Assembly (NCBI RefSeq): GCF_058153355.1
Contig: NZ_CM177019.1
DNA length: 64,000 bases
Direction: 5' to 3' (one strand)
Position numbers: made by a program. Each line of letters opens with the position of its first letter. The first letter of the stretch is position 1. Positions 31,301 to 34,300 of this stretch are shown piece by piece.

Positions 31301-34300
31301 ATTGAAGCCTTACGCGATCCGTTTGCTCGCCGGAAGATCGATGCGCTGGAAATGTCATGGATCCTCGAAACCAATACAGGCATGAATAACATGCTGGAAC
31401 GCATTGGAGCGGAGCCGTACAAGCGTTACCGATTGTATGAAAAGCAGATTTAATACCAGATCCCATTAAGCGCAGGGGCGGTCCCCTCGCCCCTCAGGGA
31501 GAGGGTTAGGGTGAGGGGGAAAACTCGGCTCACATTCCCCCCTTGTTCATCTCCAGTGGCACCGCCGAGCGAATCAAATGGTGGCCTTCCAGTTCGATAT
31601 CGTGGAGATTCTTTTTCACGGTCCGCACATGATCACGTGCGGCGCGCTGGGCGACGTGCGGCAGTCGCTGCAACACCGCGTTGTAGATCCGCGCATGTTG
31701 GCGATCGATCTGCTTTTTTTGCTGTGGTCGATGGTAGAGATTATTTACGCTGGCAAACACTGAATTAAACATCAGATCGGTCAATGATTGCAGCGTAAAA
31801 ACTAGCACCTGATTGTGGGAAGCCTGACAAATGGCAAGATGGAAAGCATGATCCAGCTGCGCGTGTTCGATCAGCGAAATTTCTTTGTTGTTTTCACTGG
31901 CGGCGAGCATTTTTTCATAACAGCGGGTTATCAAAACAAAATCCGCCTGGGTTCCCAGCGTAGCTGCCAACCTTGCCGATTCGCCCTCCAGCAATGCGCG
32001 AACGTCGAGCAGATCGTACAGCGTTCGCGGCTGCGTACTGAACAGATGGATCAGCGGGCTGGTGTCCTGCACGCGATTAAGGCGTGCTACACGAGAATCG
32101 CGCCCCTGCGCTGTTTCAATAATCCCGCGTCCGCGCAGCACGGTCAGCCCTTCACGCAGTGCGGAGCGTGAGAAGCCGAGCTTTTCACACAGTCGACGTT
32201 CCGAGGGAAGCGGCTGACCGACCTTCAATACGCCGTCGATAATTAACCGTTCGATACTCTCTGCAACCACTTCGCAAATAGGGCGACGTTCATCTTTCAT
32301 TCCCGGACCTCGTGCACAGGTAGGACCAATTTTTCTGTTCTTGATTCGCAAAACACGCACATCACGCAAGTGATTATGTTACATCAATTTAACATTAAGT
32401 TAACCAAGGCAAGGTCACAGAGCTGGAAAAAAAATGGTCTGACCGGTAGCTAAAGAGATAGACGAAAACGAAAAGCCCGCTTAATAACTGTTCACAGAAG
32501 CAGCGCGCAAAAATCAGCTGCCACACAACACAACAAAGCGAACCCTACTCATGAGCATCTTGTACGAAGAGCGTCTTGATGGCGCTTTACCCGATGTCGA
32601 TCGCATATCGGTACTGATGGCACTGCGTGAGCATGTCCCTGGACTGGAGATCCTGCATACCGATGAGGAGATCATTCCTTACGAGTGTGACGGGTTGAGC
32701 GCGTATCGTACGCGTCCATTACTGGTTGTTCTGCCTAAGCAGATGGAACAGGTGACGGCGATTCTCGCTGTCTGCCACCGTTTGCATGTACCGGTAGTGA
32801 CCCGTGGCGCAGGCACCGGACTTTCTGGCGGTGCGCTGCCGCTGGAAAAAGGTGTGTTGTTGGTGATGGCGCGCTTTAAAGAAATCCTCGACATTAACCC
32901 CGTTGGTCGCCGTGCGCGTGTGCAGCCGGGCGTGCGTAACCTGGCGATCTCCCAGGCTGTTGCGTCGCATAATCTCTATTACGCGCCGGATCCTTCCTCA
33001 CAAATCGCCTGTTCCATTGGCGGCAACGTGGCGGAAAACGCCGGGGGCGTCCACTGTCTGAAATATGGTCTGACCGTACATAACCTGCTGAAAATTGAAG
33101 TGCAAACGCTGGATGGCGAGGCACTAACGCTGGGATCGGACGCGTTGGATTCACCCGGTTTTGACCTACTGGCGCTGTTCACCGGATCGGAAGGCATGCT
33201 CGGCGTGACCGCCGAAGTGACGGTAAAACTGCTGCCGAAGCCCCCTGTGGCACGAGTTCTGTTAGCCAGCTTTGACTCGGTAGAAAAAGCCGGACTTGCG
33301 GTTGGCGACATCATCGCTAATGGCATTATCCCTGGCGGGCTGGAGATGATGGATAACCTGTCGATCCGCGCGGCGGAAGATTTTATTCATGCCGGTTATC
33401 CCGTCGACGCCGAAGCGATTTTGTTATGCGAGCTGGACGGCGTGGAGTCTGACGTACAGGAAGACTGCGAGCGGGTTAACGACATCTTGTTGAAAGCGGG
33501 CGCGACTGACGTCCGTCTGGCGCAGGATGAAGCGGAGCGCGTGCGTTTCTGGGCCGGTCGCAAAAATGCTTTTCCGGCGGTAGGACGTATCTCCCCGGAT
33601 TACTACTGCATGGACGGCACCATCCCGCGCCGCGCGTTGCCTGGCGTACTGGAAGGCATTGCCCGTTTATCGCAGCAATATGATTTACGCGTTGCCAACG
33701 TCTTTCATGCCGGAGACGGCAATATGCACCCGTTAATCCTTTTCGATGCCAACGAACCCGGTGAATTCGCCCGTGCGGAAGAATTGGGTGGGAAGATCCT
33801 TGAACTCTGTGTTGAAGTAGGCGGCAGTATCAGTGGGGAACATGGCATCGGGCGCGAAAAAATCAATCAGATGTGCGCCCAGTTCAACAGTGATGAAATT
33901 ACTACCTTTCATGCAGTCAAGGCGGCGTTTGATCCTGATGGTTTGCTGAACCCTGGGAAAAACATCCCCACACTGCACCGCTGCGCTGAATTTGGTGCCA
34001 TGCACGTGCATCACGGTCATTTACCTTTCCCTGAACTGGAGCGTTTCTGATGCTACGCGAGTGTGATTACAGCCAGGCGCTGCTGGAGCAGGTGAATCAG
34101 GCGATTAGCGATAAAACGCCGCTAGTGATTCAGGGCAGCAATAGCAAAGCCTTTTTAGGTCGTCCTGTCATCGGGCAAACGCTGGATGTGCGTTGCCATC
34201 GCGGCATTGTTAATTACGACCCGACCGAGCTGGTGATTACCGCGCGTGCCGGAACACCGCTGGTGGCGATTGAAGCGGCGCTGGAGAGCGCGGGGCAAAT

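What the first reader, a model, noticed from the sequence alone, without database searches (positions are those of the whole stretch)
31455..31530. Unclassified GC-rich palindromic element between yghO and glcC
'cgcaggggcggtcccctcgcccctcagggagagggttagggtgaggggg' is unlike the canonical REP units elsewhere in the window and sits between convergent genes. It may be a member of another small repeat family acting as a bidirectional terminator.
Basis: seen in the sequence. Interest (0 to 1): 0.3.

Follow-up and report, generated by a model that had tools for sequence, protein, structure and literature searches.

The report
BoxC repeat between yghO and glcC
The GC-rich palindrome is one copy of BoxC (also published as the PIT or TMECO "triplex motif"), a repeat of about 56 bp, known since 1992, that occurs about 20 times per E. 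coli genome; it is ordinary, and nothing indicates that it acts as a transcription terminator.

Summary
It is not unclassified. Window 31484-31517 matches exactly the published TMECO/PIT/BoxC consensus CCCTCNCCC-N3-6-GGGNGAGGG-N3-GGGNGAGGG (type A, loop TTA). A profile built from K-12 copies aligns 31465-31522 (58 nt), which fits the 51-59 bp BoxC unit. The family is dispersed: a median of 20 BLAST places per E. coli genome and 23 listed motifs in K-12. This copy is a presence/absence polymorphism. Only 186 of 4546 E. coli genomes that have the locus carry it. K-12 has a 6-bp spacer instead. Two other Escherichia species carry it (one intact, one decayed) and two do not. It diverges at the same rate as the flanking genes, which suggests neutral evolution. 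The core can form a stable hairpin and keeps 8 of 9 triplex triads. No U-tract follows the hairpin on either strand, the terminator scan found nothing, published tests found no terminator or promoter activity, and a K-12 copy lies inside the pst operon. Verdict: a known repeat of unknown function. The "repeat family" idea is right; the "bidirectional terminator" idea is not supported.

The parts
31465..31522 (+). Whole BoxC unit (58 nt): left arm ATTAAGCGCAGGGGCGGTC, triplex/hairpin core, and the start of the right arm GGAAA
   Evidence: An nhmmer profile of three K-12 composite BoxC elements aligns 31465-31522, E=2.6e-12. An alignment with 13 K-12 copies shows conserved flanks AAAGCGCACGGACGGTC...GAACAGGCCAGCAC. 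The published BoxC length is 51-59 bp.
31484..31518 (+). TMECO/PIT core, type A with one mismatch triad: CCCTCGCCC-CTCA-GGGAGAGGG-TTA-GGGTGAGGG-G
   Evidence: Exact match to the published consensus pattern: 1 hit, 0 expected. The consensus and the types are defined in PMC4666352.
31484..31492 (+). Block 1, the C-rich strand of the hairpin/triplex
   Evidence: Pairing table
31497..31505 (+). Block 2, the central G-rich strand. It forms 8 Watson-Crick pairs plus one A/G mismatch with block 1. 31496 is A where orthologous copies have G.
31509..31517 (+). Block 3, the mirror-image G-rich third strand. All 9 positions are reverse-Hoogsteen compatible with block 2. Alternatively it pairs with 31483-31492 as a 10-bp hairpin.
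31460..31545 (.). The 86-nt segment present here where 'empty' alleles (K-12 and most E. coli) have 10 nt. It contains the BoxC unit, the glcC stop codon and the last four glcC codons.
31451..31453 (+). yghO stop codon (TAA)
31530..31544 (-). glcC stop codon (TGA, 31530-31532) and the allele-specific last codons K-G-G-M (31533-44). K-12 has ..EMNLS* instead.

Best explanation
This is a solitary copy of BoxC (PIT element / TMECO type A), a dispersed intergenic repeat of about 56 bp found in E. coli and related proteobacteria. Its core has three blocks: one C-rich and two G-rich blocks that mirror each other. When the G-rich strand is single-stranded, the core can fold into a GC hairpin or an intrastrand purine-motif triplex. 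At this locus it most likely has no dedicated function. It appears to be a neutrally evolving passenger that fills the spacer between two convergent genes, forms part of both 3' untranslated regions, and lies in a segment that also supplies glcC's stop codon and last four codons. Its likeliest consequence is local structural instability (indels, allele replacement), not transcription control. Shown here: family identity, copy number, unit boundaries, the polymorphism, the neutral divergence rate and the lack of a canonical terminator. Taken from the literature: triplex formation in vitro and the absence of promoter or terminator activity. Inferred: that this copy has no function and that it promotes instability.
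For: Identity: the core matches the published consensus exactly. A profile alignment covers 58 nt. Flanking arms are shared with 13 K-12 copies. Eight canonical triads plus one mismatch triad are retained. Copy number: 5425 of 5426 E. coli genomes have matches, with a median of 20 places per genome; 23 TMECO motifs are listed for K-12 and 33 BoxC units were annotated in the K-12 GenBank record. Passenger status: the element is absent in K-12, which has a 6-bp spacer. Only 186 of 4546 genomes with the locus have the filled site. Divergence within the spacer equals that of the flanking genes: 95.7% against about 96% versus E. coli CX12, and 93.5% against 93.3-94.2% versus Escherichia sp. E1V33. 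The E. whittamii copy is decayed. Not a terminator: the literature statements, and the copy within the pst operon. Instability: two sister strains carry an extra 62 bp right next to the element, and Holder et al. found TMECO loci far more variable than control loci.
Against: No expression or 3'-end data exist for this locus, so a weak RNA-level effect (exonuclease block, partial pausing) cannot be excluded. The core hairpin is stable (-23 and -19.8 kcal/mol, z -1.7 and -2.0). Six of the 13 K-12 copies examined lie between convergent genes and only one between divergent genes. That pattern could reflect a role at 3' ends, or simply selection against insertion in promoter regions. The intact core in a species 6-7% diverged differs at one position; this is compatible with neutrality, but the sample is too small to exclude weak constraint. 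The link between BoxC and instability is a published correlation with no demonstrated mechanism.
Confidence: 0.87

Rival explanations
1. The element acts at the RNA level as a bidirectional terminator or as a 3'-end stabiliser (REP-like exonuclease block) for the convergent yghO and glcC transcripts.
For: It lies exactly between convergent genes. The core folds into a GC-rich hairpin on both strands (-23 and -19.8 kcal/mol). A second hairpin (31514-31522 with 31535-31543) spans the glcC stop codon on the glcC sense strand. Six of 13 K-12 copies are between convergent genes.
Against: No U-run follows either hairpin and the scan found 0 terminator-like sites. Fold energies of the 82- and 121-nt contexts are no better than shuffles (z between +0.09 and -0.66). 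Published assays found no terminator or promoter activity and no effect on RNA polymerase (Hoyne & Maher 2002, as reported in PMC4666352). A copy lies inside the pstSCAB-phoU operon. About 96% of E. coli genomes with the locus lack the element.
Confidence: 0.08
2. It is a recently transposed miniature mobile element (MITE-like), and the K-12-type allele is the untouched empty site.
For: There is a clear presence/absence polymorphism. Empty alleles in three lineages all have the same 16-nt spacer length. The unit has imperfect inverted-repeat arms. Related sequences occur on many plasmids.
Against: The copy is old, not recent. Orthologous copies at the same position occur in E. coli, in Escherichia sp. 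E1V33 and, decayed, in E. whittamii, with divergence equal to that of the flanks. No target-site duplication is visible, and 86 nt replace 10 nt rather than being cleanly inserted. No transposase is known for BoxC, and it is essentially absent from phage records.
Confidence: 0.04
3. It is a divergent REP/BIME unit or a chance GC-rich palindrome.
For: It is intergenic, GC-rich and palindromic, as REP is.
Against: The REP consensus matches four other sites in the window but not this one. The BoxC consensus matches exactly, with 0 expected by chance. No Rfam family reaches its threshold here.
Confidence: 0.01

Closest known systems
BoxC (Bergler et al. 1992, as cited in PMC4666352; 33 units of 51-59 bp annotated in the E. 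coli K-12 GenBank record according to PMC5172473)
   Same: Same sequence family. The window copy shares the core and the conserved arms with K-12 copies. It has the same unit length (58 nt aligned), the same intergenic location and the same multi-copy dispersal.
   Different: It sits at a locus where K-12 has no copy. Position 31496 is A where orthologous copies have G, which shortens the central G block from 10 to 9 nt. It is solitary, not paired with an inverted type-B partner as at five K-12 sites.
PIT elements (Hoyne et al. 2000; Hoyne & Maher 2002) and TMECO type A 'mm' (Holder et al. 2015, PMC4666352)
   Same: Exact match to the TMECO pattern. Loop 2 is TTA (type A). The G in block 1 gives the single mismatch triad ('mm'). 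The class II purine-motif register is preserved.
   Different: It is 35 nt rather than the usual 36, with 8 canonical triads instead of 9. Triplex formation was not tested for this variant. I could not confirm from the truncated supplement whether this locus is among the paper's 63 TMECO loci.
REP/BIME elements
   Same: Short, GC-rich, imperfectly palindromic, intergenic and multi-copy, and often found at gene 3' ends.
   Different: The consensus is unrelated. REP has a dedicated RAYT transposase and documented effects on mRNA stability (my own background knowledge); neither is known for BoxC.
Rho-independent terminators
   Same: A GC-rich stem-loop downstream of stop codons.
   Different: No U-tract on either strand, and the loop is long (16 nt for the 10-bp stem).

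Membership tests
BoxC / PIT / TMECO | Matches the consensus 5'-CCCTCNCCC N3-6 GGGNGAGGG N3 GGGNGAGGG [G/T/C/-]-3' | tested here: met
   Exact match at 31484-31517, followed by G at 31518. One hit in the window and 0 in 100 shuffles. The consensus is taken from PMC4666352.
BoxC / PIT / TMECO | Three-block register able to form a class II (purine-motif) intrastrand triplex: a C-rich block Watson-Crick paired to the central G-rich block, and a third G-rich block that is its mirror image | tested here: met
   8 Watson-Crick pairs plus 1 A/G mismatch. 9 of 9 reverse-Hoogsteen compatible positions. 8 complete canonical triads.
BoxC / PIT / TMECO | Dispersed and multi-copy in E. coli genomes (published counts 23-33 in K-12) | tested here: met
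   Matches in 5425 of 5426 genomes, median 20 places per genome, range 1-37. 11-12 places in the two closest genomes. Only one copy within the 64-kb window.
BoxC / PIT / TMECO | Unit of about 56 bp (51-59), with conserved arms flanking the core | tested here: met
   The left arm AAGCGCAGGGGCGGTC and the right GGAAA align to the K-12 family consensus. The profile alignment covers 58 nt, 31465-31522.
BoxC / PIT / TMECO | Intergenic location | tested here: met
   The aligned unit 31465-31522 lies wholly between the yghO stop (31453) and the glcC stop (31530).
BoxC / PIT / TMECO | The G-rich strand forms a stable triplex in vitro (CD/NMR) | not testable with these tools
   Shown for consensus oligonucleotides in PMC4666352. 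This 35-nt variant is untested.
REP / BIME | REP consensus GCCGGATGCGGCG...GCCTTATCCGGCCTAC | tested here: not met
   With up to 3 mismatches, four sites are found elsewhere in the window and none at 31455-31530.
Intrinsic (Rho-independent) terminator | A GC-rich hairpin immediately followed by a U-run | tested here: not met
   A hairpin is present. The tails are AAAACUCGG (+ strand) and ACCGCCCCUGCG (- strand), and the scan found 0 sites.
MITE | Terminal inverted repeats plus a target-site duplication around a clean insertion | tested here: not met
   Imperfect inverted arms exist. However, filled and empty alleles differ by a replacement of 10 nt with 86 nt, with no duplication.

The most novel reading that the evidence does not exclude
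The BoxC copy at yghO-glcC is an old polymorphism shared across Escherichia species and kept by selection. In this reading its hairpin or triplex insulates the two convergent transcription units (or stabilises their 3' ends), and the segment it lies in gives GlcC a different C-terminus (..EMNKGGM instead of ..EMNLS). That would give BoxC its first locus-specific function.
Probability: 0.06. Interest if true: 0.35.

Novelty: already known. Interest (0 to 1): 0.08.

Why it matters
It matters little for biology. BoxC has been known since 1992 and still has no assigned function, and this copy adds no functional clue. There are two practical points. First, BoxC is not in Rfam, and no repeat feature appears in the RefSeq feature tables I retrieved around BoxC copies, so sequence readers will keep flagging it as unclassified; naming it closes the question. 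Second, the locus is a clear example of the variability reported around these motifs. The allele is present in a minority of E. coli, absent from K-12, decayed in E. whittamii, and accompanied by an extra 62 bp in two sister strains. The allele containing it also changes the GlcC C-terminus and stop codon.

Tried and rejected
(1) Rfam at a permissive E-value over 30800-32200 gave only chance hits (E of 2 or more, far below gathering scores), so no curated RNA family applies.

(2) Folding 82-121 nt contexts gave z-scores near 0. Only the 43-nt core is moderately better than shuffles.

(3) I considered that the right flank, CACATTCCCCCC, might be a remnant of an inverted type-B partner, as at the five paired K-12 sites. 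The mafft alignment hinted at this. The nhmmer profile of the composite elements stops at 31522 and finds no partner, so I rejected the idea.

It returned four informative species, two filled and two empty, so the question stays open. The representatives of E. albertii, E. fergusonii, E. marmotae and E. ruysiae did not match the pattern.

(5) I searched the Holder et al. supplements for this locus (glcC, yghO, SMS-3-5 coordinates). The stored file is truncated and nothing was found.

(6) The first literature search ('box C' with REP and ERIC) returned only rep-PCR typing papers. A search on 'TMECO' found no follow-up work after 2015.

(7) I looked for a target-site duplication at the filled/empty junction and found none.

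Full report
**Observation.** The quoted sequence lies at window 31471-31519. The yghO ORF (+ strand, 30311-31453) ends with TAA at 31451-31453. The glcC ORF (- strand) ends with TGA at 31530-31532. Gene names follow the RefSeq annotation of the closest complete genome, E. coli 2013C-4282, which is 99% identical over 2.1 kb. The two genes are convergent and 76 nt apart. The segment contains a 10-nt inverted repeat, 31483-31492 with 31509-31518. It is unrelated to REP, which matches four other places in the window.

**What it is.** The sequence is a copy of BoxC. Holder et al. 2015 (PMC4666352) state that BoxC was found in the 1990s as a palindromic E. coli repeat. It was re-described by Hoyne et al. 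(2000) as a 'potential intrastrand triplex (PIT) element' and then renamed TMECO, with the consensus CCCTCNCCC-N3-6-GGGNGAGGG-N3-GGGNGAGGG[G/T/C/-]. That pattern matches the window exactly once, at 31484-31517, with 0 matches in 100 shuffles.

Loop 2 is TTA, which makes it type A. The G in block 1 gives the one mismatched triad of the commonest K-12 subtype, 'A mm'. A pairing table shows 8 Watson-Crick pairs plus one A/G mismatch between block 1 and block 2. All nine block-2/block-3 positions are reverse-Hoogsteen compatible. Orthologous copies have G at the position of 31496; here it is A, so this copy has one triad fewer than the consensus.

**Extent of the unit.** I fetched 13 type-A sites of K-12 using the coordinates in Table 1 of the paper and aligned them with their flanks. 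Similarity extends beyond the core. The family consensus reads ..AAAGCGCACGGACGGTC-[core]-AACAGGCCAGCAC... The window copy carries AAGCGCAGGGGCGGTC on the left and GGAAA on the right. An nhmmer profile of three composite (A + inverted B) K-12 elements aligns window 31465-31522, 58 nt, at E = 2.6e-12, and finds no inverted partner. The unit is therefore solitary, and its length fits the 51-59 bp of BoxC annotations in the K-12 GenBank record (PMC5172473; see also PMC2267715).

**Copy number and spread.**
- A 91-nt query found matches in 5425 of 5426 complete E. coli genomes, with a median of 20 places per genome (range 1-37), almost all chromosomal. This was a permissive BLAST count. It agrees with the 23 TMECO motifs and 33 BoxC units reported for K-12.
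- The window itself holds only this one copy.
- Phage records essentially lack it: 3 of 50,697.
- Related sequences occur on 431 plasmid or secondary-replicon records, including Klebsiella, Rhizobium, Sinorhizobium and Azospirillum. That fits the 262 proteobacterial genomes reported by Holder et al..

**The locus is polymorphic.**
- K-12 has no element here. glcC and yghO are 6 bp apart, and 10 nt (CTAACTCAGG) stand where the window has 86 nt, 31460-31545.
- Of the 4546 E. coli genomes with the locus, only 186 align across the filled site. The rest show the 76-nt-shorter form.
- The one genome-contig scan, aimed at the glcC 3' end, returned four other Escherichia lineages. Escherichia sp. E1V33 has an intact orthologous BoxC. 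E. whittamii has a decayed one, with a 12-nt deletion removing a G block and many substitutions. Escherichia sp. MOD1-EC7003 has the K-12-type empty spacer. Strain SCPM-O-B-8794 has a different empty spacer of the same 16-nt length.
- Both states therefore occur in more than one species, and I could not decide which is ancestral.
- The copy is old in any case. The window's spacer is 95.7% identical to E. coli CX12 (flanks about 96%) and 93.5% identical to E1V33 (flanks 93.3-94.2%). This is the neutral expectation, with no sign of purifying selection.
- The allele also changes GlcC's end..EMNKGGM* here..EMNLS* in K-12, and other endings in the other species.

**How it works.**
- Published work shows that the G-rich strand, as an isolated oligonucleotide, folds into a very stable triplex (Tm 70-82 deg C). 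It forms ordinary duplex when the complementary strand is present, and in vivo DMS footprinting gave no evidence for a stable triplex.
- Holder et al. report that Hoyne & Maher found a block to DNA polymerase in vitro. They found no in vivo effect, no promoter or terminator activity, and no effect on RNA polymerase.
- Holder et al. found loci with the motif much more variable between strains than control loci.
- My results fit that picture. The 43-nt core folds to -23 (+ strand) and -19.8 (- strand) kcal/mol as RNA, z -1.7 and -2.0. As DNA, the 71-nt unit gives z -2.0 and -3.0. Longer contexts fold no better than shuffles.
- No T-run follows the hairpin on either strand, and the terminator scan finds nothing.
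- One K-12 copy lies between pstA and pstB. These genes are co-transcribed (established knowledge of the pstSCAB-phoU operon), which argues against strong termination.
- Among the 13 K-12 sites, 6 are between convergent genes, 6 between tandem genes and 1 between divergent genes. This bias is as easily explained by selection against insertions in promoter regions as by a 3'-end function.

I conclude that this is a structure-prone passenger repeat without a dedicated role at this locus, and that its most probable effect is local instability. Two sister strains carry an extra 62 bp next to it. That segment consists of a second BoxC left arm plus a diverged copy of the yghO 3' end, which is the kind of rearrangement expected there. 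The lack of function and the instability mechanism are inferences. The identity, boundaries, polymorphism, divergence rate and absence of a canonical terminator are shown.

**Comparison and novelty.** All sequence-testable defining features of BoxC/PIT/TMECO are met: consensus, three-block register, unit length with arms, multi-copy dispersal and intergenic location. In vitro triplex formation by this variant cannot be tested here. REP membership, the intrinsic-terminator architecture and the MITE hallmarks (a clean insertion with a target-site duplication) were tested and not met. The finding is already known. The only locus-specific additions are the allele distribution, the cross-species comparison and the altered GlcC C-terminus. 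Interest is low.

Noticed in passing
L001 2509-2570 (E. coli 2013C-4282; the same occurs in WL297); the corresponding junction in the window is about 31464/31465: The two genomes closest to the window carry an extra 62 bp immediately left of the BoxC core. It consists of a second BoxC left arm (ATTAAGCGCACGGACGGTC), a short GGGAGAG remnant, and a diverged copy of the yghO 3' end (TGTATAGATGAACAGATTTAACATCAGATCCT). It looks like an old tandem duplication, or an unequal exchange between ATTAAGCGCA repeats. The window lacks it.
   Followed up: partly
window 31530-31545 (- strand) and loci L002, L019, L021, L022: The GlcC C-terminus and stop codon differ with the spacer allele: ..EMNKGGM* (window, filled), ..EMNLS* (K-12), ..EMNQN* (MOD1-EC7003), ..EMKQG* (SCPM-O-B-8794), ..EMK* (E. 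whittamii). All three 'empty' alleles have exactly 16 nt between the conserved anchors, although their sequences differ.
   Followed up: partly
window 31514-31522 and 31535-31543: A second inverted repeat (AGGGGGAAA / TTCCCCCCT) joins the right end of BoxC to the last glcC codons. On the glcC sense strand it is the most robust predicted hairpin and it encloses the stop codon. No U-run follows it.
   Followed up: partly
whole window (tested at 30300-32400 and 50000-52000): No complete E. coli genome is more than about 99% identical to the window. At the yghO-glcC locus most E. coli are about 96% identical and other Escherichia species 91-94%. The source therefore seems to be a divergent E. coli lineage that is poorly represented among complete genomes.
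   Followed up: partly
window 2683-2716, 13664-13697, 47471-47504, 48884-48917: Canonical REP units (up to 3 mismatches to the consensus). The one at 13664 overlaps an Rfam naRNA4 hit (13618-13694, - strand).
   Followed up: no
window 38993-39214 (-) and 60949-61021 (-): Rfam gathering-level hits: C0719 sRNA (285.6 bits) and a tRNA gene.
   Followed up: no
L020 (NZ_VLXZ01000430.1, a 233-bp contig of an Alkalicoccobacillus porphyridii assembly): This tiny contig carries the Escherichia glcC 3' end and is very probably Escherichia contamination in that assembly.
   Followed up: no
plasmid collection: BoxC-like sequences (78-92% identity over 50-60 nt) occur on 431 plasmid or secondary-replicon records, many from Klebsiella, Rhizobium, Sinorhizobium, Azospirillum and Aeromonas. 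Some 'plasmid' records are chromosome-sized and may be mislabelled.
   Followed up: no
K-12 loci L006-L018 and window 31483-31518: In 'type A mm' copies, the G in block 1 that mismatches block 2 forms a G.T wobble with the T of block 3. Block 1 therefore pairs better with block 3 (10 bp) than with block 2. The hairpin with block 2 in its loop is the predicted RNA minimum-free-energy fold of the core.
   Followed up: partly
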